Under the pieces are notes generated by a model. It made no database searches and had not been told where the DNA came from. It was given only the letters and a program-made list of their open reading frames with translations. From the NCBI GenBank assembly GCA_040755995.1, contig JBFMAF010000024.1:224001-288000 (forward strand): DNA of 64,000 nucleotides. The letters are read 5' to 3'. Source of the DNA: Acidobacteriota bacterium (GTDB lineage: Bacteria > Acidobacteriota > CAIWXX01). Below are positions 6,459-22,612 of this stretch, piece by piece; within the stretch, counting starts at the first letter, position 1, and every line of letters begins with the position of its first letter. A program made the translations under genes and the position numbers.

Positions 6459-6497
6459 GACTAATATTCGGGTCAACCCGAAAGGAGGTCGTTGATC

Positions 6498-6767
6498 ATG
6501 AGGACTCTCTCTTTATCGGAAGCGAAGATGAAGCTCAGCAGCCTCGTCGACGAGATCCACGATCGGGACGAGGAGTTCGTGATCACTAGAAAGGGACGGC
6601 CGGCGGCGGTTCTGGTCAGCCCGCAGGAGTTCGAGAGCTGGAAGGAAACGGAGGCCGTTCGCGCCGATGCCAATCTCATGGCCGAGGTCCGGAAAGGCCT
6701 GGCTGCCCTCAAGCGGCGCGGCGGGAAGCTCTACACGCTCGATGAGCTCTTCCTCGGCCGGAGCTGA
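6498..6767 (+). CDS. Type II TA antitoxin, Phd/YefM family
   Basis: SLSEAKMKLSSLVD..VITRKGRPAAVLVS..ESWKET. Confidence 0.92.
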   Translation: MRTLSLSEAKMKLSSLVDEIHDRDEEFVITRKGRPAAVLVSPQEFESWKETEAVRADANLMAEVRKGLAALKRRGGKLYTLDELFLGRS

Positions 6768-6770
6768 TGC

Positions 6771-7055
6771 ATGCGGCGTGTCCGTATCCCGGCCGGCATT
6801 GCGGAGCTCGTGCGGGGCCTGCACCCGGAGCTGAAGCGAAAGGTACGCTCAGCACTGGATGAGATCCTGAGGCATCCGGACGGGGGCAAGGCGCTCAAGC
6901 AGGATCTCGCGGGTCTGAGGAGCTGGCGTCTGGGGCGCATTCGGATCATCTACCGAGAGCAGGGGACCGATGTGGTGGATGTGGTAGCTATCGGCCCACG
7001 ACGGACGATCTACGAAGAGACGATCAGGCTGATCCGGCGGGCCGGCCATCAATGA
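6771..7055 (+). CDS. Type II TA toxin, RelE/ParE family
   Basis: 94 aa, GKALKQDLAGLRSWRLGRIRIIY..VVAIGPRRTIY; 3 nt after antitoxin. Confidence 0.9.
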   Translation: MRRVRIPAGIAELVRGLHPELKRKVRSALDEILRHPDGGKALKQDLAGLRSWRLGRIRIIYREQGTDVVDVVAIGPRRTIYEETIRLIRRAGHQ

Positions 7056-9100: not shown

Positions 9101-9919
9101 TCATTGGGAGCTCACGGCGTCACGCGATTGCACGTCTGCGATCGAATCCAGCGGAGCCTGAGCGCGAGCGACCAATAGCTCCTCCAGTCTCAGCGCGGAT
9201 GGGTATTGATCGAGATGAAGACCCTGTGCGAGGAATCGTTCGAACCCGCCGCCGGCCTTCTCGGGCTCACCGCTGCATTTTTCACTCACACTGTCCAGCA
9301 CCCACCTCAGCACCGAAACGGCCTGTTCGGGTTCCTGTGCCAGGCCCAGCTCTCCGATCATTGCGCCCAGGGCATCGAGCGCCTCGAGCTTGACCTGCCC
9401 GGGTCCCATCGCGGCGAGGAAGCTCGTGAGTCCGATCAGGAGATCCCTGAAGTCCTCCAGCACCTGTCCGAACCATCCGTGCTCTCGCCACTCCACACGG
9501 TCCACCGTCTCGAACCAGGCACGGAATGATCGAGCCGGCAGGACCAACGGTTGCACCCTGGCCTGGTCGGTGCTCATCCCCGCTGCAATGTCGGTGGCCT
9601 TGAACAGGAGACGGCTCCAGAGGTTCGCATAGAACTGCTGCATCGGCGGTCCGAAGATGCAGCGCAGGAGGAACTCCCGGTCAGGCGACATCTTGATCCC
9701 CGTGTAGATTGCCTGGACCAGCGACTCGAGGACCGCCGCGCGACTGCCAGCGTCGCGAGAGCGTTCGACGGCCTGGAGCAGGTGCTGGATCGCTTCCTGG
9801 ATCGGACGCATCTCCGCCGGAAGCTCCAGGAACCAGCTAATACCATCCCTGACGCCCTGCACGTCGCCGGCAGAGGCGGCCGTCATGAGATCCCGCGGTG
9901 TCAGCATGAGTGTCGTCAT
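9101..9919 (-). CDS. Hypothetical all-helical protein (272 aa), preceded by the shared promoter motif
   Basis: GGAGGAGG RBS before ATG 9919, amphipathic helical pattern, no domain recognised. Confidence 0.65.
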   Translation of the reverse strand: MTTLMLTPRDLMTAASAGDVQGVRDGISWFLELPAEMRPIQEAIQHLLQAVERSRDAGSRAAVLESLVQAIYTGIKMSPDREFLLRCIFGPPMQQFYANLWSRLLFKATDIAAGMSTDQARVQPLVLPARSFRAWFETVDRVEWREHGWFGQVLEDFRDLLIGLTSFLAAMGPGQVKLEALDALGAMIGELGLAQEPEQAVSVLRWVLDSVSEKCSGEPEKAGGGFERFLAQGLHLDQYPSALRLEELLVARAQAPLDSIADVQSRDAVSSQ

Positions 9920-9978: not shown

Positions 9979-10005
9979 GATTTGGCGAACAGGCCACATC
10001 TTGCG
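9979..10005 (-). promoter_or_regulatory. Putative ECF promoter motif, copy 1
   Basis: Plus strand gatttggcgaacaggccacatcttgcg; 60 nt upstream of ATG 9919; A-tract upstream on minus strand. Confidence 0.7.
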
Positions 10006-10215
10006 TCCTCTGGCGAAAATTTTTTTCAGGCACCGGGCTCTGATCCGAGGGGTCCGTCACTCACCAGGCGGGAGGCGCTGGACACTGACACACGGAGACG
10101 CGGAGAGGAGGACCGGCTTCGCCTTCGCCTTGCCGCCACTTGAATTCCGGCCGCCCGCCTGCTAAGAATAATGCACGTCCCGGGTTCGTTTCGCTGGCGC
10201 CGATAACTGGGGGGG

Positions 10216-13200
10216 ATGATCGCGATGGAGGAGGGCTGCTCTCGCTCTGCACCCCCACACCGCCGGGCGAGGGCTCGGGTGCCTACCCAGGTGTGCTGTG
10301 GATCGGCCTTGTTGGCTGTGCTCGGTTCGCAGTCCGCCGATCTCTCGTCTCGGGCGCCCCGCGCCATTCATGTTGGAGAGACGCTTGAGGCGGAGATCGC
10401 GGACCCAGAACACGCCCGCCTCCGGCCTTCTTTGGGCCCAGGGCACCGGTTCATTTTCGACGGCAGGGCAGGGCAGAGGCTGACCATCGGCGTGGAGTCA
10501 TTCGAGTTCGATTCGTATCTGATTCTTTTCGACCCGGCAGGCCGCGAGATCGCATTCAGCGATGACAGCGCCGGTTTCTCCAACGCGTGCATTCGGAGGC
10601 AGCTCCCCGCGGACGGCGAGTATCTGCTTGTCGTCTGCGGCGCGACCGCTGATCACCTCGGGACGTACTGGCTCACGGTACGAGAACGCGATCACGAGCC
10701 GGATTACAGTGAGCGGGCAGCGACTGCGTACTACCGTCGAGGACTGGCATGGGCATCAAGCCGCGGGAGCCGGCGCGCCGAGAGCTTCCTCAATCTGGTC
10801 ATGGGCAGGTACTATCGCGAGCGCGGGCGCTGGGGGCAGGCGGAGGACTGCTATGCCCGGAGTCGCGCCGCGGCCCAGACAGCCGATCTTGAGGTCGCGT
10901 TGTGCGCGGCCGCAATCGAACGCGGCAGGCTGATGACTCAGCGCATGCGCTATGACGCGGCCATCCGGGAGTTGCTGCGCGCACTAAGGCTGAGCGCCTC
11001 GCTGCGCGCGGCTGAAGACGCGCAGGCACAGGCCTACGCGCAGATAGGTGACATTTATCGGTCCATCGGTCGCTCCCCCGTTGCTTCCGTCTGGTACCGC
11101 AAAGCCGCAGAAGCGACATCTCCCGACGGCCCGGCTTCGACCCGAGCCAGGGTTTATTCGTCCCTGTTCAAGTCATCACTTACATCCGACAGGGACGAAG
11201 CATTCGGGTATGCGAAGTCGTGCCTTGCGATGCGAGATGCAGTTGATCCCGTGCAGCGTGTCACGATCACCGCCGATTGGGCGCGTGTGGAAGGCGCGAG
11301 GGGGCAGCCAGAGGAAGCCCTCAGATTGGCCGAAGAGGTGTGTCGCGCAGCGCGTTCGCTCGGCTGCCGGGACATCGAGATCTCCGCGCTCTCACTTGAG
11401 AGCCTGATCGCTTGGTCTCTGCGCGACATGGATGGGACCATCAAGGCCGCCCGATCCGCCGCCGCCCTAGCTCGGCCGGAAGACGAAGATTCCGGGTCCC
11501 TTCGCGTCGCGCTCCAGATGCAAGCGAGCGGCGAGATGCTCCGGGGCGACTACCAGGCGGCCCTTGCGTCGTGCCTTAAGGCGCTCCCACTAGTGGAGCG
11601 AGGCTGGGAACGTGAGCCCGTTCCTGAAGTGCGGCAGGGCTATGCGTCGCAGACGAGGGGGCTTTGCACCCAAATCATAAGATGTCTGGCCGCTCTGAAT
11701 GCACAGGAGCCGAAGACGGGACATGCTCGCATGGCCTTTGATTTCGCTGAGCGCACCAGATGCCGGTCGTTGCTCGAGGAATTGCACCGTGACGAGTTCG
11801 AGCGTCAGGGGATGCGCGCAGCGCTCGAAGCTGAACAGACGCCACTGATGGTGCGCCTGTCCGCCCTCAGCCGTCAGCTCGCAGTCGCTCGTAGTGACGA
11901 TATGAGCGATCAGGGATTGCTGGACCGGCTGGAGGAAGATCGCGCGAGGCTCGTGGCGCAGCGTATGCTTTTGGAGGCGAGATGGAATGGGCACAGTACT
12001 TGCGAGAGGGCGAATTTGCCGGTCCCGCTGACCTGTGACCAGCTACAGTCAGGCTTCCTGCGGCAGCGGCCCAATACCGCCATCCTCGTCTACCAGCTGG
12101 GCGTCAAAGAGAGCTTCCTTTTCCTTCTCAGCCGGAGCGACGTGCGCCTCCTCACTCTGCCGGACTGGAACTGCATCGGTGGGCTCGTCAGGCAATGGCG
12201 TTCCGCCATCGTCCAACAGCTTCGCTCAGATGCCGGTGACGTGCTTCAGGTGCGCCACTACGAGGATATCGCTCACAAGCTCTATGCGACATTGGTGCAG
12301 CCGGTGGCGGACCACATACGAGGAAGAGATCTGGTTTTCGTCGCCGATGGAGTCCTGCACGAATTGGCGTTCGAGAGTCTCGTCACGTCCAGAGCTGATG
12401 ATGCGAGCAGCTATGCCGGCCTTCGTTATCTGGTTGAGGACCACGCGATCACCTATGCTCCGTCCGTCACGATTCTGGTCGAGGCCGAGCGCAGGGCAAA
12501 CGTGCGGCCTCCACCCGCCAGGAATCTGCTGCTGGTGGGCGACGCGGTGTTCACACCGGATGATCCCCGCGCCGGTGTTCCCCCGTCTACGCCGTCCGTG
12601 AGCTCCAACACGGGAGCAGGCAGAAGGGCGATGGCACTTCGTGCCGGCATCGGGAGGCTGCCGGCAACACGTCAAGAGGTCCTGGGCATCTCGGAGCTGG
12701 CCGAGAAGAGCAGTTGGCATTCGACACTCTGGATGGGATTCGACGCGGCGGAAGGAAGGCTCAAGACCACGCGGCTGTCGCAATTCCGCATCGTGCACTT
12801 CGCGACTCATGCAACCGCAGACCCAGTGGACGGCGAGTTCTCGGGCATCCTCCTTTCGTATGATCGCGACTCCTCGGACGAGGACGGGCTCCTTTCCGCT
12901 GCTGAGGTGAGAAGCCTGGATCTCGATGCCGAACTTGTCGTGCTCAGCGGCTGTTCCACGGCCGCGGGCCAGCGGACAGGCGCTGAGGGAGTAATTGGGC
13001 TGAGTCGCGAGTTCATGATCGCCGGGGCTGAGCGCGTGTGCGCATCGCTTTGGGATGTCGAAGACGGGTCCACACAGCGGCTAATGGGCACCCTATATGG
13101 ACACCTCCTCTCCAGAGGCGACCCCCCGGGTTTCGCGTTGCGGCAGGTGAAGATCGAACTCCTGTCCGCTGGTCTCTCACCCAGTCGCTGGGCCGCCTTC

Positions 13201-13221
13201 GTCTTGGCGGGAGCGCTGTAG
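10216..13221 (+). CDS. PPC-domain/TPR/CHAT caspase-like protease
   Basis: PPC-like domain (FDGRAGQRLTI..FDSYLILFDP.G..IAFSDD), TPR-like helices, AFDFAERTRCRSL, CHAT motifs DGVLHELAF, HFATHA (His), VLSGCST (Cys), SLWDV, WAAF. Confidence 0.93.
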   Translation: MIAMEEGCSRSAPPHRRARARVPTQVCCGSALLAVLGSQSADLSSRAPRAIHVGETLEAEIADPEHARLRPSLGPGHRFIFDGRAGQRLTIGVESFEFDSYLILFDPAGREIAFSDDSAGFSNACIRRQLPADGEYLLVVCGATADHLGTYWLTVRERDHEPDYSERAATAYYRRGLAWASSRGSRRAESFLNLVMGRYYRERGRWGQAEDCYARSRAAAQTADLEVALCAAAIERGRLMTQRMRYDAAIRELLRALRLSASLRAAEDAQAQAYAQIGDIYRSIGRSPVASVWYRKAAEATSPDGPASTRARVYSSLFKSSLTSDRDEAFGYAKSCLAMRDAVDPVQRVTITADWARVEGARGQPEEALRLAEEVCRAARSLGCRDIEISALSLESLIAWSLRDMDGTIKAARSAAALARPEDEDSGSLRVALQMQASGEMLRGDYQAALASCLKALPLVERGWEREPVPEVRQGYASQTRGLCTQIIRCLAALNAQEPKTGHARMAFDFAERTRCRSLLEELHRDEFERQGMRAALEAEQTPLMVRLSALSRQLAVARSDDMSDQGLLDRLEEDRARLVAQRMLLEARWNGHSTCERANLPVPLTCDQLQSGFLRQRPNTAILVYQLGVKESFLFLLSRSDVRLLTLPDWNCIGGLVRQWRSAIVQQLRSDAGDVLQVRHYEDIAHKLYATLVQPVADHIRGRDLVFVADGVLHELAFESLVTSRADDASSYAGLRYLVEDHAITYAPSVTILVEAERRANVRPPPARNLLLVGDAVFTPDDPRAGVPPSTPSVSSNTGAGRRAMALRAGIGRLPATRQEVLGISELAEKSSWHSTLWMGFDAAEGRLKTTRLSQFRIVHFATHATADPVDGEFSGILLSYDRDSSDEDGLLSAAEVRSLDLDAELVVLSGCSTAAGQRTGAEGVIGLSREFMIAGAERVCASLWDVEDGSTQRLMGTLYGHLLSRGDPPGFALRQVKIELLSAGLSPSRWAAFVLAGAL

Positions 13222-13277
13222 ACGCCTGCGGCGACACAGCCTCCACTCGATGCCGTCTCGGTTGATCACCGGTCGCG

Positions 13278-13466
13278 TCAGGGCTTGCTGGGACTACAGC
13301 AGTCCGCCCCGAACAGACAACAATCGTCGTCCAGCGTCATGGGTGGGTTGATTGTGCGCACTCCCGCTTGGTTGTGCTGCAAGGGGCTTGGTGACGGCGT
13401 CCACGCTGGCGAAGCCAGCAGAAGTGTACCCAGCAGTCCCAGAATGATCCATCGTACTACCGACAT
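13278..13466 (-). CDS. Small secreted cysteine-rich peptide (62 aa)
   Basis: AAGGAGGA RBS before ATG 13466; signal peptide MSVVRWIILGLLGTLLLASPA; C-terminus DDDCCLFGADCCSPSKP; shared promoter motif upstream. Confidence 0.75.
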   Translation of the reverse strand: MSVVRWIILGLLGTLLLASPAWTPSPSPLQHNQAGVRTINPPMTLDDDCCLFGADCCSPSKP

Positions 13467-13579
13467 GGTTTCCTCCTTGTTGAATGAATGCCGTTGACCG
13501 ATCGCCTCGGCCGGCGGCGGTTGTGTTGTTTGACCGTGTTCCACCTGTAACCGTTGTTCATGTCCCTTCACCAAAGGAT

Positions 13580-13606
13580 GATTTGGCGAGAAGGGCACAT
13601 CTTGCG
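13580..13606 (-). promoter_or_regulatory. Putative ECF promoter motif, copy 2
   Basis: Plus strand gatttggcgagaagggcacatcttgcg, 24/27 identical to copy 1; A-tract upstream on minus strand. Confidence 0.72.
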
Positions 13607-13663
13607 TGCGGAGCATAGTTTTTTTTCCAAGGCGTCGCGCGGGTGCTGGCGACCTCACAACGT

Positions 13664-13813
13664 CTGCCGCTGAAGGGCACTCTCCGAGTGCTGCTCGATG
13701 GCAAGGAAGCAGACCTGATCGAGGAAGTGAAGCCGCTTCGGGACCGCCTCCACGAGCTCCGATCCCGCATCGCGCCGCACAGTCGCACCACCGTCCTGGA
13801 TCTGGCCGGCGAG
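13664..13813 (+). pseudogene. Remnant of DUF3368-type PIN-domain gene (C-terminal fragment)
   Basis: GTLRVLLDGKEADLIEEVKPLRDRL..SRIAP..VLDLAGE resembles the DUF3368 C-terminal pattern GTLGVLL.AK..GLI..VKP.LD.L..AGE; N-terminal part absent. Confidence 0.6.
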
Positions 13814-13934
13814 CCTGTAGCCGGGTCAGTGCGGGCCGCTTCGCGACCACCACACCAGCGGGCCGCCGTCCGCTGTTTCGGGGTTACGGCTGCGGACGAG
13901 GATGATGGATGGACTTGCTCCGGGCCGATCTCGC

Positions 13935-13962
13935 TGATATCATAATGGAGAGTATGATATCA
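13935..13962. promoter_or_regulatory. Perfect inverted repeat, probable TA operator
   Basis: TGATATCATA-N8-TATGATATCA, 23 nt before the antitoxin ATG. Confidence 0.75.
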
Positions 13963-13985
13963 AGGACACGGGGGAGGCAACTGGG

Positions 13986-14225
13986 ATGCGCACGATCATC
14001 ACTCTCGCGCCGGAAGACAAGGCGTGGCTCGACCGGGTGGCACGACAGCGTCACGTCCCGATGACTCGGATCGTCGCCCAGGCAGTCAAGGAGCTTCGAC
14101 GTGAATGGAGCTTTCTCGATCAGGATTTCGACCAGATACTTGACGAGACACGCGGCATCTGGAAACGAGCTGGCGGATTGACCTACCAGCGAATGCGCCG
14201 GGCCGAATGGGACAGGCGACAATGA
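13986..14225 (+). CDS. Ribbon-helix-helix (CopG-like) antitoxin, VapB-type
   Basis: MRTIITLAPEDKAWLDRVARQRHVPMTRIVAQAV; ATGA overlap with PIN toxin. Confidence 0.85.
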   Translation: MRTIITLAPEDKAWLDRVARQRHVPMTRIVAQAVKELRREWSFLDQDFDQILDETRGIWKRAGGLTYQRMRRAEWDRRQ

Positions 14226-14590
14226 GGCTGCTGCTCGATTCAGTGATCGTCATCGACCACTTCAACGGAGTCTCGAATGCTACAGCGTACCTCGCTGCCG
14301 TGCGAACGGAGGCTGCCGTGTCGGTGATAACTCGAGCGGAGGTCCTGGCGGGGCTCGATGACCTCGCTGCAGTCAAGGCCCAGCGTCTCCTCGACTGCTT
14401 CCCCACGCTGCCCATCGACAGAGAGGCGGCAGACCTCGCTGCGAGTCTCCGGCGCAGCCACCACTGGAGGCTCCCCGACGCATTTCAGGCTGCGCTCGCG
14501 CTCAGACACGGGCTCCTCCTCGTGACCCGGAACACGAAGGACTTCCCGCCTTCCAAGCACCGCTTCGTCCTCGTGCCGTATCGACTGTAG
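14222..14590 (+). CDS. vapC: PIN-domain toxin, VapC family
   Basis: LLDSVIVID, SVITRAEVL.G, LPDAFQAA.A, LVTRNTKDF. Confidence 0.92.
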   Translation: MRLLLDSVIVIDHFNGVSNATAYLAAVRTEAAVSVITRAEVLAGLDDLAAVKAQRLLDCFPTLPIDREAADLAASLRRSHHWRLPDAFQAALALRHGLLLVTRNTKDFPPSKHRFVLVPYRL

Positions 14591-17500
14591 GTGTCCGGAG
14601 GATGCCCGCTCCGATCCAGCGAGCAGGAGCGTGGTCGCGCACGCAGCGGGTACCGCAGACGGGGCACGGAGGTGTGGACGCGGTCGTCGGCTGCCTGGAC
14701 CCGCCATGCACGTCCTCGCAGTTGTGCGACATCTCATTCTCGCCCCGGGCGCCGGTCACGACTCTGACTATGCTGAAGGTCGCGTCGCTTTCGTCCCACG
14801 GATCCTTGTCCAGGTCGCTCACTCGTGTGAGACAGTTCGTAGATGTCGGAGTCACGACCGGCCACTGGCAACTTCCCGTGTTGACGATTCCCGCCTTGAT
14901 CCGGCTCCAACTCTGCCCGTTGTTCCGAGAAATGTCAACGTTCACATTCCGCACGTTGCCGCCGGTCGTCCAGGCGATCGTTGCCGTCGTTCCCACCTTG
15001 AGCTGCTCGCCTCCGTTCGGCGATGTCACCGTGATGCTCGGCCGGATCGAGAACGGCTCCTTCGTCTCGCCGCAGAACTTCATGTTCGCAGCATCGCTCA
15101 CCCGCAGATAGCACTCCGCGGCCTCCGGCTCCGTCACGATCCAACTCAGGCTTCCCTCGTTCGTGTAGGTCGTGTTCTTCGGGTCGATGTGCTTCCAGTC
15201 GCCGCCATCCCGCTTGATCTGTATCTTCACGTTCTTCGGCGTCCCGGACGGGCTCCACTTGATCGTGTAGCTCTTCCCGTTCCTCAGCACATCGCCGCCC
15301 ACCGGCTTCTTGATCGTGAAGCCGTCGTTGATCGGGAACTTCGCATCGGAGGTGTCGGCTGTGACACCGCCGGCGTCTTTGATCTCGATCAGGCATTCGG
15401 TCGACGCTGGGCCCGTGACCGGCCATGGCAGCTCGCCGCTATTGGGCACCGATTCGCGCCCCGGATGCAACGACTCCGAGTAAGGCGCCTTCCCGGTGCG
15501 GCTCAGCGAGACCTTCACGTTCTGAATCCGAGTCATGTCGCCGGGGTTCCACTTGATGGTCTGCTTCGTCCCGATCGTTAGCCCGTCGTTCTTCCCATTC
15601 GGCCATTCCACCTTGATCACCATCTGCTGCGGCACGATCGAGAATGGCTTGCTCATGGCCGACGGATCGGCGTCCCCTGGATCTTGGATACGGACGCGCC
15701 AGCCGTCCCCAGAAAGGCCCTCGGGCACCGGCGGCACCTCGCACAGATAGTGCCCGCTGTTCTCGCAGGATGGCACGACTTCGATCGTCTCCAGATCGTG
15801 GTCGGGCAGGTTCTTGATGAGGTCGATCCTCACGTGTTGGCACAGCGACACGCTCGTGGCCACCCACTCGATCCTGTACTTGTTGCCGACACCAAGCAGC
15901 TCTCCTCCTTCGGGTCTGGTCACTCTCAGAGTCGCTGGCGCGGCCACGATGCGGAAGTGCTCGTCGCTCTCGTCCTTCACGCCAGCCGTGATCTCCTCCA
16001 CGCGGATCCGGTACGCGTTGCCCGGCGCGTCGTCAACAATCCACCGGCAGGAAGTCACATAGCCCTTCTCTGCAATGGGCCGCACGCGCTCCGGGCTGCT
16101 AGAGTCGTCCACAAGAGAGATCCTCAGTCCCTTGCCGCTCGCGAAGTGTCCGGTCAGCTCCCAGCTGATCATCACCTCGGTGCCCGCCTGAAATGTCTGC
16201 CGTTCCAGCTCGGTGTTGTGTGGGGGCACCCTGCCGCCGTTGGGATAGAGGACCTTGATGGCTCGATTCGACGGCTCGATCGTGAACGTGCCATCGCTCA
16301 GATCCTGTGTGTCTTCATTCCCGGTGTGAATCCGTATCAGGCACTGCTCGGATGGCGCGTTCGGCACGCTCCACTTGAACGACTTGCTCTTCGGATCGAG
16401 CGCGTTGGCTCCGTCCACCGCCTTCCAGTTGGTCCCGTTGTCTGTGGAGTACTTGATCGCCATCGTCTGCGTGCCGAAGTCACCATCGGCGATCCACACG
16501 ATGTTGTGCTCGGTGAGCGCTTCCCAGTGCTCACCGCCGTTCGGCTCACGCACGGTGAGCTTCTTCTGGACGATCGAGAACGGCGCATCGCTCGTGTCTT
16601 CCTCGGGCCCGGCCGTGTTGCTGATGCGGATGTAGCATCTCCCGGCGGCGGTGTCGGCAGTCCACTTGCACTGGCGTGCGGCCGCGTCGAAGGATGACTT
16701 GATGACCTTGATCTGAGTCGCGTTGCCCACCGAGATGAGCAGCTCGATACGCACCGTGGCGATGTTCGACGTGGCTCGCCACTTGATGGTGGTGGACTTC
16801 CCCACGATAAGCGCTTCGCCTCCGTTGGGGTACTCCACCACGATCTCGCCGGTCACAACGGTGCCCTGCGGAGACCTGTCCGTCTTGAGACGCATCCCGC
16901 GATCGTCGTAGAGGTAGCTCGCAAGGAGCGGCAGCTCTGCCGTGCCCGCGTCCGGTGTCGTGTCGCCGTCCATCTCGGCCAGCAAGCTCGACATGTCGCT
17001 GCCCGCCTCCGCATTCATCTTCCGCACCTCCGCGAGGCGGTTCTGATTGTCCCAGACATACTGGTAGACGCCGTCGGACTTGAGATTGCCGCGGCCGTCA
17101 TAGGGCAGGCCGATGATCTGGTTCTTCCCGTTGAAGGTCTGCACCAAGGGCGAGCTCGTGCCCTCGGTGATCTGCCGGGCATTTCCCAGTCCGTCATACT
17201 GGTAGGCGATCGACGGCACTCGGCCGGCGCTGTTCGGAGTGTACTCCACCTTGGTCAGCCGGTTCAGGTCGTCGTACTCGAAGGTCGCGTCGAGCTGGGG
17301 ATTGGTGTCGGTGATCGACGTGATGTTGTAGTTGCCGTCATAGCCGTATACAGCGCGATAGAGGTTCTTCGTGGAATTTGCGAGCCGGGCACTGCCCAGG
17401 TGACCTGTCTTGAGGTAGGCGGCGGTGAACGTGGTCCCGTTGGCGAACCCGATGCTGGTCGGCTGCTTGTAGTCCGCATAAAGCGCAGAGTCGACGATGC

Positions 17501-19298
17501 GCGCGCCGTTGCGCCTCACGCTGTCCGGGGCGTCGAAGCCGGTATTCGTGTACGTGATCCTCTGGCCATCCGGGTAGACGACTGCGCTGAGGTTGTTGCT
17601 GGCATCATGCTCGTACGCCAGCGTCTTTGCAGACATTCCCGGGATAGTGAGCGTCTCATGCTCGACAGACCCCAGCGGATTGTACGAGATGCCGGTCCGC
17701 TTCCACCCCTTCGTCGCGCTCTCGACCGAGCGGAGCGTCCCGTCGCCCGGGTCGTAGCCATAGTTCAGGTCATCGTCCCCGGAATTCAGGGTCTTGAGCT
17801 GGTTGAAAGTGTTGTAGCCGTAGTTGATTGCGGTGGTCGCCCAGACCTTCCGTTCGAGGTTGCCCGTGGTGGGGCTGTACGTGTAGCTGATCGTCCCGGT
17901 TTCCGGGTGGCTCTCGCTGGTGACATTGTCCATGCCGTCGTGGGAGTACCTCTGGGTCCGGCCGCCGCTGAGGTCGGCCCGCAGAAGCCGCCCGATGTCG
18001 TCATAGTAGTACGCCGTGGAGACGCCATTCGGTTCGGTGGTGAGCGTGATGCGGCCGGGCAGGCCGTCGTACCGGTATTTCCAATGCTTGCCGTTCGCGT
18101 CTGTCACATCCTTGAGGCCGTTCTCGAGACTCACGATCGTGGTCTTGTTCCGGGGGTCCGTGGTCTGCACAACGTCGCCGGCTTGATTGTAGATATAGCT
18201 GTAGACGTCCAGCGGGTCGGTGCTGCCCCTGGATTCCGCAACCACCCGGCCCTCCTTGTCCAGCTCCTTCCTGTACTGGAGCGTGGTGCCGGTCTTGAGG
18301 TCTTTCTCCGTGTGCCCAAGGGCGCGCCCGAGACCATCCCAGTACTTGACGATCTGCTTCTGCTCCTGAGTGACGGTTGCGCTTCTGCCGTTCTCGGCCC
18401 ATCGCACCGTGATGTTGGCGAACTGCCCGGGCATAGTGACGTCGGTCACGCGGCCCAGGTTGTCGTAGGAGAAGCCCATCGTCCCGCCGTGCTGATTGGT
18501 TTCCGTCAGAATCGAGCTGTCGTGCGGGCTGATGGTTCTACTGAATACGGTGAACCCATCCTGCCATTTCAGAAGCGACTGCACTCCGTGGTCGTACTTC
18601 GCGATCTGTTTGCCGGCGGAGCCCGGGAGGTCCGTCGTGATCGTGATCAGTGCCGGATTCGCCAGCTGGTTCTCGTAGCCCCAGGTAAGCCAGTTCCCTG
18701 ACCCCACCCACCGCTCGACCTGCGTGACGGCGCCCGTTGGGAAGTCGTACGTCGACTTCGTCTCCTTGAGCTTCCCCGACGATCCGGTCGTCGTCTGGTT
18801 ACTGACGTATGAGAGCATGTAGCTGTCTTTGAACCTCTGGTCGCTCTCGAATGCGTAGCTGTATGTGTCTGTGTAGCTGGCCGCGTGGGGGCCCGTGCCG
18901 CTCGAGTGCGTGATCGATGTGGGGAGCCCGCGCTCGTACGGCCCGGTGCGGTCGTAATAGTATGCGTCGATCGTGGTCTGAGCCGGAAGCGTTGTGCGCT
19001 TCACGCTCCTTCTGAGAGGAACCCATATGGGCGCACACTCGTTGAGATGATTGATATCGCCGATCACGTACCTCTGCCAGCCGTACCACTCATGATAGCT
19101 CGTGTCCCCGTACCACTTCTCCGTGATCACAGGGTCCAGCGTGACGTCGCCGGGCAGACCGTATTTGGCGTAGGCCTTCTGTGTGGCCGGTCCGGTCACA
19201 ACTACCGTGTCATCTCCTGCCAGGTTGAATCCTGGATACTCGTAGCTCCATTCCGCGGTCTCGCCCTCGCCATCGACGATGGCCCTCCGCCATACCAC
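14502..19298 (-). CDS. YD/RHS-repeat protein with seven C-terminal PNGGE Ig-like repeats; apparently lacks N-terminus and RHS core end (frame open to 19697)
   Basis: Many YD-type repeats (YDNLGRV, YDDIGRL, YDDLNRL, YDGRGNL, YDDRGMR) then 7 ~95-aa units starting P(N)GGE-like and ending SD..F(S/T)I-like; GTG 19298 after GGGGA is a tentative start. Confidence 0.85.
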   Translation of the reverse strand: MVWRRAIVDGEGETAEWSYEYPGFNLAGDDTVVVTGPATQKAYAKYGLPGDVTLDPVITEKWYGDTSYHEWYGWQRYVIGDINHLNECAPIWVPLRRSVKRTTLPAQTTIDAYYYDRTGPYERGLPTSITHSSGTGPHAASYTDTYSYAFESDQRFKDSYMLSYVSNQTTTGSSGKLKETKSTYDFPTGAVTQVERWVGSGNWLTWGYENQLANPALITITTDLPGSAGKQIAKYDHGVQSLLKWQDGFTVFSRTISPHDSSILTETNQHGGTMGFSYDNLGRVTDVTMPGQFANITVRWAENGRSATVTQEQKQIVKYWDGLGRALGHTEKDLKTGTTLQYRKELDKEGRVVAESRGSTDPLDVYSYIYNQAGDVVQTTDPRNKTTIVSLENGLKDVTDANGKHWKYRYDGLPGRITLTTEPNGVSTAYYYDDIGRLLRADLSGGRTQRYSHDGMDNVTSESHPETGTISYTYSPTTGNLERKVWATTAINYGYNTFNQLKTLNSGDDDLNYGYDPGDGTLRSVESATKGWKRTGISYNPLGSVEHETLTIPGMSAKTLAYEHDASNNLSAVVYPDGQRITYTNTGFDAPDSVRRNGARIVDSALYADYKQPTSIGFANGTTFTAAYLKTGHLGSARLANSTKNLYRAVYGYDGNYNITSITDTNPQLDATFEYDDLNRLTKVEYTPNSAGRVPSIAYQYDGLGNARQITEGTSSPLVQTFNGKNQIIGLPYDGRGNLKSDGVYQYVWDNQNRLAEVRKMNAEAGSDMSSLLAEMDGDTTPDAGTAELPLLASYLYDDRGMRLKTDRSPQGTVVTGEIVVEYPNGGEALIVGKSTTIKWRATSNIATVRIELLISVGNATQIKVIKSSFDAAARQCKWTADTAAGRCYIRISNTAGPEEDTSDAPFSIVQKKLTVREPNGGEHWEALTEHNIVWIADGDFGTQTMAIKYSTDNGTNWKAVDGANALDPKSKSFKWSVPNAPSEQCLIRIHTGNEDTQDLSDGTFTIEPSNRAIKVLYPNGGRVPPHNTELERQTFQAGTEVMISWELTGHFASGKGLRISLVDDSSSPERVRPIAEKGYVTSCRWIVDDAPGNAYRIRVEEITAGVKDESDEHFRIVAAPATLRVTRPEGGELLGVGNKYRIEWVATSVSLCQHVRIDLIKNLPDHDLETIEVVPSCENSGHYLCEVPPVPEGLSGDGWRVRIQDPGDADPSAMSKPFSIVPQQMVIKVEWPNGKNDGLTIGTKQTIKWNPGDMTRIQNVKVSLSRTGKAPYSESLHPGRESVPNSGELPWPVTGPASTECLIEIKDAGGVTADTSDAKFPINDGFTIKKPVGGDVLRNGKSYTIKWSPSGTPKNVKIQIKRDGGDWKHIDPKNTTYTNEGSLSWIVTEPEAAECYLRVSDAANMKFCGETKEPFSIRPSITVTSPNGGEQLKVGTTATIAWTTGGNVRNVNVDISRNNGQSWSRIKAGIVNTGSCQWPVVTPTSTNCLTRVSDLDKDPWDESDATFSIVRVVTGARGENEMSHNCEDVHGGSRQPTTASTPPCPVCGTRCVRDHAPARWIGAGILRTPTVDTARGRSGAWKAGSPSCSGSRGGARV

Positions 19299-20215
19299 GC
19301 GCGATCCCCATGGTCCGCTCTTACCACCGCGGTGAGCTCCGCGCGCTCGGGGCTCATCGCCACAATCGACAACAAGCACGCGACGCCGTCGAAATGCTCC
19401 TCCGGGTGGAACCTGAACGAAAGCCTCCCAGGCGCCGACTGTCTCACCGAATACGGCCCGGCCGTGGCTCCGGGCTCCGCGCTTGCGATGGCCAGCACAC
19501 GGTCGTCGTAGATCACATCGAACGACCCATACGACGGCCACACGCGCGCAGCGACGATCACACGCACGGAGAACTCCTCGCCTGCGGCCGTCTGGATCTT
19601 GCGCGGATCGAAGGCAACCGCCGCTCGCGCTGGAAGAACGTTTTGTACACTCGGCGCCGCGGTCGTCGGGACTGAAGGGGCCGGTGGGCTCGCACATCTC
19701 CGCTCCTCTGCGAGCACCGCTCCAGCACGCCCTCCGGCCGGCGCACCACCGCCAGCGACGGCCTCGAGTGGCTCCTCCATCGCTCGCAAGCGGATGGCGG
19801 CAATCTGGCGCTTCAAGAGGCCATGATCGTTGAAGGGATCCGTGCGGACGGCTTGCGCATACGCCTGGTATGCAGCCGCAAGCTGCTCCGAGCGCTCCAG
19901 CTCTTCGCCGCGCGCAATCAGAGCCTCCGCTCGCTGGGCGATGGCGGAAGCCAGAGCGGCCGAGTACTTCGGATCGCCTGGATCATGCTTCAGAGCTTCC
20001 TGCAGATACCCGATTGCATCCTCGTGCTGTTCAGCACGTTGCGCTCGCATCCCACTGTTGTAAGCACGCGACGCCGCGCACCCCGCGCTCGCGAGGAGCG
20101 CGAGTATCGTCAGCATGCACAAGCGGATACGGCGTCTTCTGGCAGATCCACCCGTGCCGCTGGGCCTCGCCGCGGACCTTTCGGCTCTCCCTACCCCTTC
20201 TGTCACCTCAGTCAC
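19202..20215 (-). CDS. Lipoprotein with TPR N-terminus and cohesin-like C-terminal domain
   Basis: Lipobox ILALLASAGC, TPR-like helices (AIGYLQEALKHDP; AYAQAVRTDP), Pro/Ala linker, cohesin-like strands (GEEFSVRV..FDVIYDDRVL); GTG 20215 after GAGGGG. Confidence 0.7.
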   Translation of the reverse strand: MTEVTEGVGRAERSAARPSGTGGSARRRRIRLCMLTILALLASAGCAASRAYNSGMRAQRAEQHEDAIGYLQEALKHDPGDPKYSAALASAIAQRAEALIARGEELERSEQLAAAYQAYAQAVRTDPFNDHGLLKRQIAAIRLRAMEEPLEAVAGGGAPAGGRAGAVLAEERRCASPPAPSVPTTAAPSVQNVLPARAAVAFDPRKIQTAAGEEFSVRVIVAARVWPSYGSFDVIYDDRVLAIASAEPGATAGPYSVRQSAPGRLSFRFHPEEHFDGVACLLSIVAMSPERAELTAVVRADHGDRAWYGGGPSSMARARPRNGATSIQDSTWQEMTR

Positions 20216-20233
20216 ATGTCCCCTCATATATAT

Positions 20234-20260
20234 AGTTTCGCGAGAAGGCCAATTCTCGCC
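20234..20260 (-). promoter_or_regulatory. Putative ECF promoter motif, copy 3 (degenerate)
   Basis: Plus strand agtttcgcgagaaggccaattctcgcc, 19/27 identical to copy 2; just upstream of the lipoprotein/RHS unit. Confidence 0.5.
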
Positions 20261-20854
20261 GGAGAAACAAAAAGAACTTTCCTGAGCAGAATCTGCAGCC
20301 GAAATTTGGCCCAGGGAATGGGCGCGCTTGTGGGAGGAAACGCCGGACTGTGCACTACCACTTGGCGCTAAGTTATGCATGACTATCATCTCCATCGCAC
20401 ACGATACAATATAGTACTTGTGGAGACCTTTGTCAAATGCGATAAAGGCGCCCCGCGCAAGTTAGCACCATAGGGCGTATCGGCCTTTCGCTCCGCTGGT
20501 CGTGGGGGCTAATTCATAAATTAGGTTGCCAGCGGGCAACGACAACCATATACAACACTGTAGGTTCATTGTGGCTACCAATCATTCGGACGCTAGCCAT
20601 CTTCTCCTCCTGCAGGAATACGCGCAAAATACTACAACGCAGTCCGAGAACCTGTGACACGAATCACACGGGAAGGCGTCTGCGACCCACATTCATGGCC
20701 CTCGCGACGGCCCCCGATGATGGGGTTTCGCATCCGCGGTAGGGCGGCTCCCCGTGTCGACCCAGCGCAGATACTCCGGAGTCTACTCCTGATGCCGCGT
20801 GAGAAGATCGCTGAGGTACTGGTGCGAGTTCGCTGAATTCGGCAAGCAGTGCCT

Positions 20855-21649
20855 TCAGCTCGTCGATCGTTCGATTATCGCCTTCAGTCTCTCCGCCTGC
20901 CTCCGTAGCTCGCCGTTCGAATCGATGATCTTGCGGAGCTCGTCGAGTGCAGCATCGGGCTTGTTCGCGCCCAGGTATGCCAACGCCAGATAGTATCGAG
21001 CGCGTTCGAGAGACATTCCGGCGCTCGTTTCTGCGGCACGCTTCAACGGCCCAATTGCATCCGCGGCCTGACCCATGAGCACAAGAGAGACGCCCTGGTA
21101 GAAGTGCGCCTCAGCGTTCTCCGGGTCCAGCCTGGCTGTCACCTCCAGCTGTTTCGACGCGGACGCGTAGTCTTGTTTCAGGTACGAGGCCATGCCTTCA
21201 TCGAATGCCTCCCAGCCGCCGGCACCACGAAGCACTGGGCGGCTTGCTGGAGGTACATAGGCCGCCTTGGGCACGACCATCCCGGTCCAGAGCCTGGTCT
21301 CAGATCCTGATCCGCGGCCTGACAAGACGAAGTATGCTGTCACCGCCCCGCCGGCGACCAACAGAACGGAGGCTGCCAGTAGCGCCGCCCGCCCGCGCCA
21401 GGCCCATGCTGGCGGCATCCTTTGCGGCAGATCGACGGCTGGAATCTGCTCTGCCCGCGCTGCGCCGCGTAGCACGGCCTGGCGATGATTTCGCAGGGTC
21501 GCCATATGGGGGGCCATCGCGAACACCTCTTCGTGACAGTACGCGCATTCCCACATGTGATCGACGAAGGCCTCGCGCTCACCCTCGTCCAGCATGCCCA
21601 GCTCATAGCGGGTTATCAGCCGACCGACTGCAGGGTCAGTACATTTCAT
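20855..21649 (-). CDS. Zinc-finger (ZAS) anti-sigma factor with TM helix and extracytoplasmic TPR domain
   Basis: HxxxCxxC (HMWECAYC), TM segment ALLAASVLLVAGGAVTAYFVL, TPRs (AHFYQGVSL; ARYYLALAYL); downstream of ECF sigma. Confidence 0.88.
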   Translation of the reverse strand: MKCTDPAVGRLITRYELGMLDEGEREAFVDHMWECAYCHEEVFAMAPHMATLRNHRQAVLRGAARAEQIPAVDLPQRMPPAWAWRGRAALLAASVLLVAGGAVTAYFVLSGRGSGSETRLWTGMVVPKAAYVPPASRPVLRGAGGWEAFDEGMASYLKQDYASASKQLEVTARLDPENAEAHFYQGVSLVLMGQAADAIGPLKRAAETSAGMSLERARYYLALAYLGANKPDAALDELRKIIDSNGELRRQAERLKAIIERSTS

Positions 21650-21726
21650 AGGTCACTCCCTTCCTCTGGATCGAGAACCGCGATCTGTGCTGAAACGGCC
21701 TCTGCTCGGTCCCGGCACTATCGTCA

Positions 21727-22281
21727 TCATTGCGGCCTCCCAGAGAGTATCTCCCGCAGCGCCTTGCGGCACCGAAGCAGCCATTCGTCAACGCGGGCTC
21801 TCGGGGCCCCCAGACTCTCAGCCAGCTCCCGCACGCTCACCCCCTCGCATATTGCGAGAAGCAGCGCCCGGCACCGAGGCCTGCTCTCGCCCAGAAGCTC
21901 GATGGCGCGCCGGACTGCGGGGTACATCAGCGCGGCCTCGATCTGGGGCTCCTGCGACCTGCCCCGGTCAACGGACTCTGGATCGCCAGAATGCAGCTCC
22001 ACCTGTCGCCTCTTCCTTTGCCTCTCATAGTAGTAGTAATTGCCTATGATGTTTCGGAGCACAGCATCGGTATACTCCAGCAGCCCTTGGCGTGTCTGGA
22101 TTTCCGAGAAGTGCTCCTGGACCACCATCAATGTGTCATGTACGACGTCCTCTAAATCTCCCTCACTTACTTTAGATTTGGCGAGAAAGCGGTATCTTGC
22201 GCGCAAATACAAAAAAAGTTTCTCCCGGGCCTCCGGGTCGCCCGCCCGCGCCAGGTAGAAAAGGTCGGCGATCCTACCCAT
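21727..22281 (-). CDS. ECF RNA polymerase sigma-70 family factor
   Basis: ARAGDPEAREKLF, LEDVVHDTL, region 2 (VLRNIIGNYY), region 4 (CRALL..EGVSVRELAESLG..VDEWLLRCRKALR). Confidence 0.9.
   Translation of the reverse strand: MGRIADLFYLARAGDPEAREKLFLYLRARYRFLAKSKVSEGDLEDVVHDTLMVVQEHFSEIQTRQGLLEYTDAVLRNIIGNYYYYERQRKRRQVELHSGDPESVDRGRSQEPQIEAALMYPAVRRAIELLGESRPRCRALLLAICEGVSVRELAESLGAPRARVDEWLLRCRKALREILSGRPQ
22175..22201 (-). promoter_or_regulatory. Putative ECF promoter motif, copy 4, internal to the sigma CDS
   Basis: Plus strand gatttggcgagaaagcggtatcttgcg, 22/27 identical to copy 2 with all mismatches in the spacer; T7 tract upstream on minus strand. Confidence 0.68.
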
Positions 22282-22612
22282 CGCAAGTCTGCTCTGTGGT
22301 CATCGCGTCTGATCTACCCTCCAGCAGGCCGGGGACCAGCGACTCCAACGGCGCTCCCGGGAGGCCGCAGCGGCGGCGGCGGACGCTCTCCTGTTCACAG
22401 CATTCCTCGGGGCATGGACAACGGCCGTATTCTAGCACCACTCGCGTGCCCCTGGTCGAACGAGCCTCGCCTCCTGGTCATCCTCGCTCCGGGCTGTTGG
22501 GGCCTGCTGCGGCGCATTGACAAGTGCGGCACATCTCTGGGAATCTAGGGACTGCAGGCGCGACTGGAGGTGTCGTTTGGAATCTGCGAGGTCGGGGCCC
22601 ACGCCGGAGGAC

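What the first reader, a model, noticed from the sequence alone, without database searches (positions are those of the whole stretch)
9979..22201. Four copies of a 27-bp motif with ECF promoter geometry
Minus-strand reads are: 10005-9979 CGCAAGAT gtggcctgt TCGCCAAATC; 13606-13580 CGCAAGAT gtgcccttc TCGCCAAATC; 22201-22175 CGCAAGAT accgctttc TCGCCAAATC; and degenerate 20260-20234 GGCGAGAA ttggccttc TCGCGAAACT. All have the same orientation and an upstream A/T tract, and all are followed by TGA(A)GGG 9 nt downstream (7 nt in the degenerate copy). GCAAGAT-N16-ATC parallels the sigmaE layout GGAACTT-N16-GTC. In the three best copies the mismatches fall only in the 9-nt spacer, which suggests selection on a binding site. 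I did not notice the motif outside this block.
Basis: partly seen in the sequence, partly recalled or inferred. Interest (0 to 1): 0.85.

Follow-up and report, generated by a model that had tools for sequence, protein, structure and literature searches.

The report
Sigma genes hiding their own promoters
The repeated DNA motif is real, occurs 11 times in the genome and is likely the promoter read by the neighbouring stress-type sigma factor; one copy lies inside that sigma factor's own coding sequence, where it would switch on its inhibitor rather than itself, and the odd fourth copy matches a second motif written at the same place inside a sister sigma gene.

Summary
Three exact copies are confirmed. 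The motif (A: CGCAAGAT-N9-TNNCCAAATC) has 11 copies genome-wide and none in 40 relatives. The 22201 copy lies inside the ECF sigma gene, at codons 27-35 (region 2.1). The 'degenerate' 20260 copy scores at background for A. It is a full-score member of a second motif (B, 7 copies), which sits at the same codons of a paralogous sigma gene. Neither sigma has its motif upstream. Across 92 homologous genes these codons keep rare synonymous forms (Lys35 AAA 56 of 58; Val28 GTA 36 of 40). The intragenic core recurs near the gene in 12 of 44 loci against 0.44 expected (post hoc mask). One clade shows no second copy. Best reading: ECF promoters of sigma/anti-sigma/TPR-CHAT cassettes, with an internal self-promoter that likely drives the anti-sigma (negative feedback, as rseAP3 and PrshA do). 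There are no transcript or binding data. The scan reported this design earlier on other DNA of this genome (e1-9906438, e1-8500496).

The parts
22175..22201 (-). Motif A copy inside the sigma coding sequence (codons 27-35, region 2.1); predicted internal self-promoter, start site predicted at about 22168-22165
   Evidence: maximum score 33.8 bits on a matrix trained without it; synonymous constraint in homologues
13580..13606 (-). Motif A copy, 140 nt ahead of the small secreted peptide gene
9979..10005 (-). Motif A copy, 86 nt ahead of the 272-aa gene of unknown function
20234..20260 (-). Motif B copy (GGCGAGAA-N9-TCGCGAAACT), the motif carried inside the paralogous sigma at G000:C36:197662-198217; an in-frame ATG at 20227 sits at the predicted start site
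21727..22281 (-). ECF sigma factor, 184 aa
   Evidence: Pfam Sigma70_ECF above cut-off; TIGR02937 57.1 bits against cut-off 42.9; family profile aligns to E. coli RpoE 1or7 residues 12-184, E 2.3e-10
20855..21649 (-). Predicted anti-sigma factor: HxxxCxxC zinc site, one hydrophobic segment, TPR-like C-terminus; predicted target of the internal promoter
   Evidence: zf-HC2 and TPR hits below Pfam cut-offs; NCBIfam 'antisigma' 28.7 bits, below cut-off; 40% identical to the C36 partner
10216..13221 (+). TPR-CHAT protease with His-Cys motifs (HFATH, LSGC); no A or B motif in front of it
   Evidence: CHAT E 9.6e-60; sequence; genome scans
13278..13466 (-). 62-aa peptide with a signal-like N-terminus and a CC...CC C-terminus; a counterpart lies behind a motif B copy in the C36 cassette
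   Evidence: no Pfam or NCBIfam hit
9101..9919 (-). 272-aa gene of unknown function behind motif A
   Evidence: no hits in Pfam or NCBIfam; single copy in the genome
19202..20227 (-). TPR lipoprotein-like gene behind motif B, followed by the RHS/Ig-repeat gene 19697-14502 (true start uncertain)
20408..20436 (-). Sigma-70-like promoter match TTGACA-17-TATATT upstream of the motif B site
   Evidence: 11 of 12 matches; 2 found against 1.8 expected, so consensus only

Best explanation
Motif A is likely the promoter read by the ECF sigma at 22281-21727; its copy inside the sigma's own region-2.1 codons would drive the downstream anti-sigma, and the 20260 site is likely the promoter of a paralogous sigma (G000:C36) that carries its own, different motif at the same codons. 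Shown: the sequences, the positions, two distinct motifs each present in one sigma gene, no copy within 500 nt upstream of either sigma, synonymous constraint, and recurrence near homologous sigmas. Inferred: that the sigmas bind these sites and start transcription 7-10 nt after AAATC. Also inferred: released sigma A would switch on about 10 targets (the CC-CC peptide, sensor kinases and response regulators, a CheW/CheR cluster, two further ECF sigma genes) and more anti-sigma, but not itself, which gives a negative-feedback pulse. Release through the TPR-CHAT protease is inferred from gene neighbourhood and the DdvA precedent only.
For: There are 11 A sites with a clear score gap (37.0-46.5 bits self-trained, next 18.5, reversed control maximum 17.2) and 0 of 40 relatives have the pattern. 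Matrices trained without the intragenic copies give those copies the maximum score (A 33.8, B 31.8), while cross-scores are 1.4-10.8. A heads the peptide gene of the window's cassette and B heads the peptide gene of the C36 cassette. In G001 the intragenic 27-mer has an identical copy 5 kb away, after the CHAT gene. In 92 dereplicated homologous genes: Val28 GTA 36 of 40 (other Val columns 0-13%); Lys35 AAA 56 of 58 (Lys57 14 of 51, Lys78 7 of 30, Lys85 9 of 30); Arg29 AGR 60 of 81 (gene background 11%); GC3 minima at codons 35, 28, 36, 29. The 10-base core recurs outside the gene in 12 of 44 loci against 0.44 expected, while the other 169 registers give 125 against 125.5. GTAAG-Nx-[CG]AAAC recurs in 13 of 27 loci at x=15 and in 0-1 at the other 8 spacings. 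An anti-sigma signature follows the sigma directly in 36 of 38 motif-bearing loci against 16 of 35 others. By eye, the -35 half varies with the sigma4 helix. Precedents: rseAP3 in rpoE and PrshA in sigH.
Against: There are no transcript or binding data. An 18-position best-match test over 70 loci showed no peak, and a mononucleotide-background version was not top-ranked (19 of 70 against 5.1, O/E 3.7; codon 78 reached 6.3). The successful mask was chosen after seeing the hits. Only 5 of 18 loci checked show a promoter-like second copy by eye; none of 7 in the 'LKVRTFRCR' clade do. Genome-wide, the GTAAG pattern gave 17 hits against 12 control hits in 5 genomes that I had picked for having a neighbour copy. 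The intragenic A copy alone lacks C at position 29 (10 of 11 have it) and is among the lowest on the downstream part (8.8 bits, range 8.0-18.0), so it may be weak. The predicted internal transcript has a leader of about 516 nt, longer than rseAP3 (228 nt) or PrshA (62-66 nt). The genome has 45 Sigma70_r2 matches, so another sigma could read A. Homologues are related, so their counts are not independent.
Confidence: 0.72

Rival explanations
1. The motifs are ECF promoters, but the intragenic copy acts mainly as a roadblock: holoenzyme bound about 80 nt into the gene damps transcription of the sigma itself, or makes a shortened sigma, rather than supplying anti-sigma.
For: The site is at the 5' end, about 516 nt from the anti-sigma start. 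GTG at codon 38, near the predicted start site, occurs in 28 of 50 motif-bearing genes.
Against: No ATG is conserved downstream (at most 5 of 50 at any codon from 37 to 72), and GTG is the commonest Val codon anyway (44%). The anti-sigma follows directly in 36 of 38 loci. This reading is not exclusive with the best explanation.
Confidence: 0.12
2. The sites are operators of a dimeric repressor or activator (an imperfect palindrome GCGAGAA-N6-TTCTCGC), not promoters.
For: Dyad matches between positions 1-7 and 14-20 are 7 of 7 at 20260, 4-7 of 7 across B sites and 3-6 of 7 across A sites. The spacer is partly conserved in G000. A site inside a gene suits a repressor.
Against: The invariant 3' half (CAAATC, GAAACT) lies outside the dyad. 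All sites are directional, with an A/T tract upstream and a purine run downstream. Positions 16-20 are not conserved in the 13 extragenic GTAAG-class copies. Each motif variant goes with one sigma gene.
Confidence: 0.07
3. The extragenic copies are pieces copied or templated from the sigma gene (gene conversion or RNA-guided targeting), and the intragenic copy is simply the source.
For: G001 has 27 of 27 identical bases including the spacer. B sites share TATATATG.GGGG with the C36 codons.
Against: In 13 intragenic/extragenic pairs, spacer identity to the locus's own gene is 0.328 against 0.322 for permuted pairs (p 0.37); the flanks behave likewise. A-site spacers vary. Copying would not explain rare-codon constraint inside the gene.
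Confidence: 0.04
4. The rare codons serve translation (an AT-rich 5' ramp), and the match to the extragenic motif is incidental; another sigma reads the regulon.
For: The site is near the 5' end; the genome has 45 Sigma70_r2 matches.
Against: The constraint is confined to codons 28-29 and 35-37, not codons 2-15 apart from a milder dip at codon 9 (GC3 0.52). A 33.8-bit match in a 555-nt gene is very unlikely by chance (about 1e-7, my estimate), and it happens twice with two different motifs.
Confidence: 0.05

Closest known systems
rseA P3 of E. coli (PMC8595263; passages read)
   Same: An ECF-dependent promoter inside the sigma's own coding region that drives the anti-sigma transcript.
   Different: rpoE also has an upstream sigmaE-dependent promoter (positive loop); here no upstream self-site was found. 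rseA P3 starts 228 nt before rseA; here the site is at codons 27-35, about 516 nt before the anti-sigma.
PrshA of Corynebacterium glutamicum sigH-rshA (PMC3489674; passages and section 6 read)
   Same: The sigma is transcribed from housekeeping-type promoters, and a SigH-type promoter inside sigH drives the anti-sigma alone: the same circuit logic.
   Different: PrshA starts 62-66 nt before rshA, at the 3' end of sigH. Here the site is in region 2.1, is held by rare codons across several phyla, and differs between two paralogs of one genome. The partner here is a membrane anti-sigma with a CHAT protease nearby.
DdvS/DdvA of Myxococcus xanthus (PMC6061681 passages; PMC11506125 abstract and first part of Discussion)
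   Same: ECF sigma, zinc-binding membrane anti-sigma and TPR-CHAT module. The promoter GTAA-n16-CGT has the same layout as G[CT]AA-N16-CAAA here.
   Different: In DdvA the TPR-CHAT is part of the anti-sigma; here it is a separate gene. DdvS has a DdvS-dependent promoter for the ddvSA operon and controls CBASS and CRISPR genes; the targets here are signalling and secreted proteins. No DdvS chain was recognisable by name among the 19 PDB hits.
CASP-sigma/Csx30/Csx29 of type III-E CRISPR (PMC10028731; passages read)
   Same: A TPR-CHAT protease linked to an anti-sigma and an ECF sigma, with motif copies clustered in the locus.
   Different: No CRISPR effector was seen here; NF041236 scores 20.5 against a cut-off of 100; no intragenic self-site is described in the passages read.
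ECF54 (PMC7826278 supplement, 2 passages, file cut when stored)
   Same: An ECF group encoded near TPR-CHAT proteins and subtilases.
   Different: ECF54 is 100% Actinobacteria; the homologues here are titled Acidobacteriota, Krumholzibacteriota, Eisenbacteria and others.

Membership tests
ECF sigma factor (group IV sigma-70) | sigma2 and sigma4 domains only, under about 200 aa | tested here: met
   184 aa; PF07638 and TIGR02937 above cut-off; family profile aligns to RpoE 12-184
ECF-dependent promoter | bipartite motif with fixed spacing, oriented towards downstream genes | tested here: met
   11 of 11 A sites share one spacing; 10 of 10 non-sigma sites point into a same-strand ORF; only spacer 15 is enriched in homologous loci
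ECF-dependent promoter | canonical AAC (-35) and CGT (-10) cores (as summarised in PMC8103513) | tested here: not met
   The cores are GCAAGAT and CAAATC. That review says later classifications dropped this as a defining feature.
ECF-dependent promoter | sigma-dependent transcription start just downstream | not testable with these tools
Positively autoregulated ECF | cognate promoter upstream of the sigma gene | tested here: not met
   best score in 500 nt upstream is -0.5 bits (sigma A) and -2.7 bits (sigma B)
Internal anti-sigma promoter (rseAP3/PrshA kind) | cognate motif inside the sigma coding sequence, sense strand, anti-sigma downstream | tested here: met
   anti-sigma signature downstream in 36 of 38 motif-bearing loci
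Internal anti-sigma promoter (rseAP3/PrshA kind) | separate anti-sigma transcript that depends on the sigma | not testable with these tools
   needs 5' end mapping or reporters
DdvS/DdvA | TPR-CHAT fused to the anti-sigma | tested here: not met
   the anti-sigma is 264 aa with no CHAT hit; CHAT is a separate 1001-aa ORF
Type III-E CASP-sigma | NF041236 score above cut-off | tested here: not met
   20.5 bits against 100
ECF54 | Actinobacterial ECF next to CHAT, subtilase and carboxypeptidase-regulatory domains | tested here: inconclusive
   CHAT neighbour yes; the taxa of the closest homologues differ; no ECF-group HMM library was available

The most novel reading that the evidence does not exclude
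In this cross-phylum ECF family the DNA that encodes region 2.1 is itself the factor's recognition site. Each sigma gene then spells out its own promoter in its codons and must rewrite those codons whenever its specificity changes. Sitting only about 80 nt into the gene, the site both feeds the anti-sigma and blocks the sigma's own transcription, making a pulse generator. Two such paralogs run orthogonal but cross-wired regulons in this genome.
Probability: 0.25. Interest if true: 0.75.

Novelty: new variant of a known kind. Interest (0 to 1): 0.52.

Why it matters
ECF promoters are usually predicted from DNA upstream of autoregulated sigma genes (PMC7826278, PMC8103513 passages). This family would be scored as 'not autoregulated' and missed, yet its promoter can be read straight from codons 27-35. 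That gives testable promoter-sigma pairs for uncultured lineages, including two close paralogs with cleanly separated motifs in one genome, which is useful for specificity rules and orthogonal switches. It also gives a readout (regulon and reporter) for a little-studied class of sigma/anti-sigma/TPR-CHAT cassettes. The feedback logic itself is already known from rseAP3 and PrshA.

Tried and rejected
The word-index protein search found only the query; the HMMER search gave 504 hits at E<=0.001. The sigma was found at E<=1e-12 in 2 of 400 other genomes of the phylum, both of the same family. The 18-position best-match profile showed no peak and the mononucleotide O/E version was inconclusive. 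A degenerate family-wide pattern was near chance level in 5 genomes (14 hits against 7 control hits). The L033-type motif gave only the intragenic copies in G401 and G402 plus one other hit in G002. Templating of the extragenic sites was not supported. A conserved internal ATG restart was not found. The palindrome is not kept in the GTAAG class. No RNA holder was listed for window 19500-22500. Literature searches for ECF+CHAT+promoter motif, CHAT+ECF+anti-sigma+zf-HC2, intragenic promoter+synonymous+ECF and rshA+internal promoter returned 0 papers. One search returned one listing (PMC3372973), which I did not read. These searches cover open-licence text only. The ECF classification supplement was cut when stored, so unseen parts may describe this group. 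Structure and complex prediction were not run.
Full report
Observation. The four reads are in the sequence as written. The 18-base core CGCAAGAT-N9-TCGCCAAATC has 3 matches in the window at up to 3 mismatches, all exact, against 0.10 expected. Genome-wide there are 6 exact matches, 3 with one mismatch, 3 with two, 6 with three and 83 with four. Eleven sites fit CGCAAGAT-N9-TNNCCAAATC; the reversed control has 0, and 0 of 40 relatives have any. A matrix built on these 11 scores them 37.0-46.5 bits, the next site 18.5 and the best reversed-control site 17.2; the 20260 copy gets 8.5. I call this motif A. All 10 non-sigma copies point into a same-strand ORF, 8 within about 220 nt and 2 at about 420-450 nt. 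By sequence inspection the targets include PAS kinases and response regulators, a CheW/CheR cluster, secreted proteins and two further ECF-like sigma genes (those ORFs were not scanned against family libraries).

Surroundings. The block holds an ECF sigma (22281-21727), a zinc-site/membrane/TPR anti-sigma candidate (21649-20855), a TPR lipoprotein-like gene and an RHS/Ig-repeat gene, a PIN pair, a 62-aa CC-CC peptide, a TPR-CHAT protease (10216-13221) and an unknown 272-aa gene. The third motif copy lies inside the sigma ORF at codons 27-35. That stretch is likely real protein: the family profile aligns from its N-terminal helix onward to E. coli RpoE, and Gly14, Leu26 and Ala34 are invariant in 20 homologues.

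The fourth copy. The genome has one close paralog at C36 (39% identity), in a cassette with anti-sigma, CHAT, peptide and PAS kinase. Its codons at the same position read GGCGAGAA-N9-TCGCGAAACT followed by ATATATATG, as at window 20260. This motif B has 3 exact, 2 one-mismatch and 1 two-mismatch copies, plus 1 promoter-like copy among 4 with three mismatches; the reversed control has 0, 0, 0 and 4. With matrices trained without the intragenic copies, each intragenic copy reaches its own maximum (33.8 and 31.8 bits) and cross-scores are 1.4-10.8. Neither sigma has a site in the 500 nt upstream. The window therefore has three A sites and one B site, and the TPR/RHS unit appears wired to the other sigma. 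At C33 a B and an A site stand 102 nt apart.

Homologues. A profile of the 20 best of 150 listed hits fetched 77 genome loci and 80 metagenome loci (the best 80 of 123); 92 sigma genes remained after dereplication. The closest are titled Acidobacteriota; many others are Krumholzibacteriota, Eisenbacteria and relatives. At the motif codons, Val28 is GTA in 36 of 40 (other Val columns 0-13%) and Lys35 is AAA in 56 of 58 (23-33% at four other Lys columns). Arg29 is AGR in 60 of 81 and Arg37 in 52 of 88 (background 11%; the highest Arg column outside the motif is 44%). GC3 is lowest at codons 35, 28, 36 and 29.

Recurrence tests, in the order run. An 18-position best match over the 70 loci of at least 5 kb showed no peak. 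A 10-base exact core with mononucleotide background gave 19 of 70 against 5.1, not the top register. With a pentamer background and only cells expected below 0.05, the motif register gave 12 of 44 against 0.44, and the other 169 registers 125 against 125.5. In the GTAAG class 11 of 27 loci have an exact second copy (0.13 expected), and 13 of 27 match at spacer 15 against 0-1 at eight other spacers. The mask was chosen, so the spacer and register controls carry the weight, and kin are not independent.

Locus-specific variants follow their own gene. G001 has an identical 27-mer after its CHAT gene, and G401 has its variant only in the gene and 5.5 kb downstream. L023, L025, L030, L033 and L070 show promoter-like copies by eye, but 13 of the 18 loci do not, including all 7 of the 'LKVRTFRCR' clade. 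In 5 hand-picked GTAAG genomes there were 17 hits against 12 controls, two per genome at the sigma locus, so those regulons look small and local. CHAT was confirmed in 20 of 22 hand-picked large neighbouring ORFs. An anti-sigma signature follows the sigma in 36 of 38 motif-bearing and 16 of 35 other loci. By eye, sigma4 helices group with -35 halves (DEWL with GCAAGA, DDR.Y with GCGAGA, Y[VT]ALHRCR mostly with GTAAG); this was not tested on a tree.

Mechanism. Most likely (0.72) the motifs are ECF promoters and the intragenic copy is a self-promoter that supplies anti-sigma, so the factor limits rather than amplifies itself. Binding, start sites and the role of the CHAT protease are inferred. 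In two B sites, including 20227, position 33 is the A of an in-frame ATG. Against the reading: the intragenic A copy lacks the otherwise conserved C29 and the predicted leader is long. Templating was not supported (spacer identity 0.328 against 0.322), a conserved restart codon was not found, and the palindrome is partial and lineage-limited.

Comparison. The circuit is known from rseA P3 and PrshA. The gene set resembles DdvS/DdvA and CASP-sigma but fails their membership tests. Four searches found no paper on this family or on a region-2.1 self-promoter (open-licence text only). I reached the intragenic reading before the look-up (note). The scan's earlier unreviewed notes give the same design on other DNA of this genome, and they supplied the DdvS/DdvA papers. 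Verdict: a real feature and a new variant of a known kind; interest 0.52.

Noticed in passing
window 20436-20408 (-): A near-consensus sigma-70 promoter sits ahead of the motif B site. Paralogs of the TPR lipoprotein gene at G000:C28:14315 and C31:142359 also have TTGACA boxes upstream and no A or B motif.
   Followed up: partly
G000:C3:107555 and C56:36772: Motif A heads two other ECF-like sigma genes, each followed by a long ORF, one of which looks protease-like by eye; this may be a sigma cascade.
   Followed up: no
G000:C33:60697 and 60595 (-): Tandem B and A sites 102 nt apart ahead of one secreted-protein gene: possible dual input.
   Followed up: no
G000:C36:193609 (-) and 193651 (+): Back-to-back divergent B sites share one A/T tract and serve a PAS kinase and the CC-CC peptide; L030 has two similar sites on opposite strands about 300 nt apart.
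   Followed up: partly
window 14502-19697 (-): 1731-aa ORF with RHS/YD repeats followed by several Ig-like (Kre9_KNH) repeats; its mechanical start overlaps the upstream gene by about 500 nt, so the true start is uncertain.
   Followed up: no
window 13986-14590 (+): A small gene plus a PIN-domain gene, like a toxin-antitoxin pair, inserted between the RHS gene and the peptide gene; another such pair by eye at 6492-7055.
   Followed up: no
G000, 12 tblastn hits on 9 contigs: The genome holds about a dozen CHAT-domain genes and further anti-sigma paralogs at C20 and C23.
   Followed up: no
L045, L072, L074, L075, L079, L085, L089, L091, L095 and others: A clade with a 'YRR.YRCR' sigma4 helix has GC-rich codons at the motif position, so it seems to lack the internal site.
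   Followed up: partly
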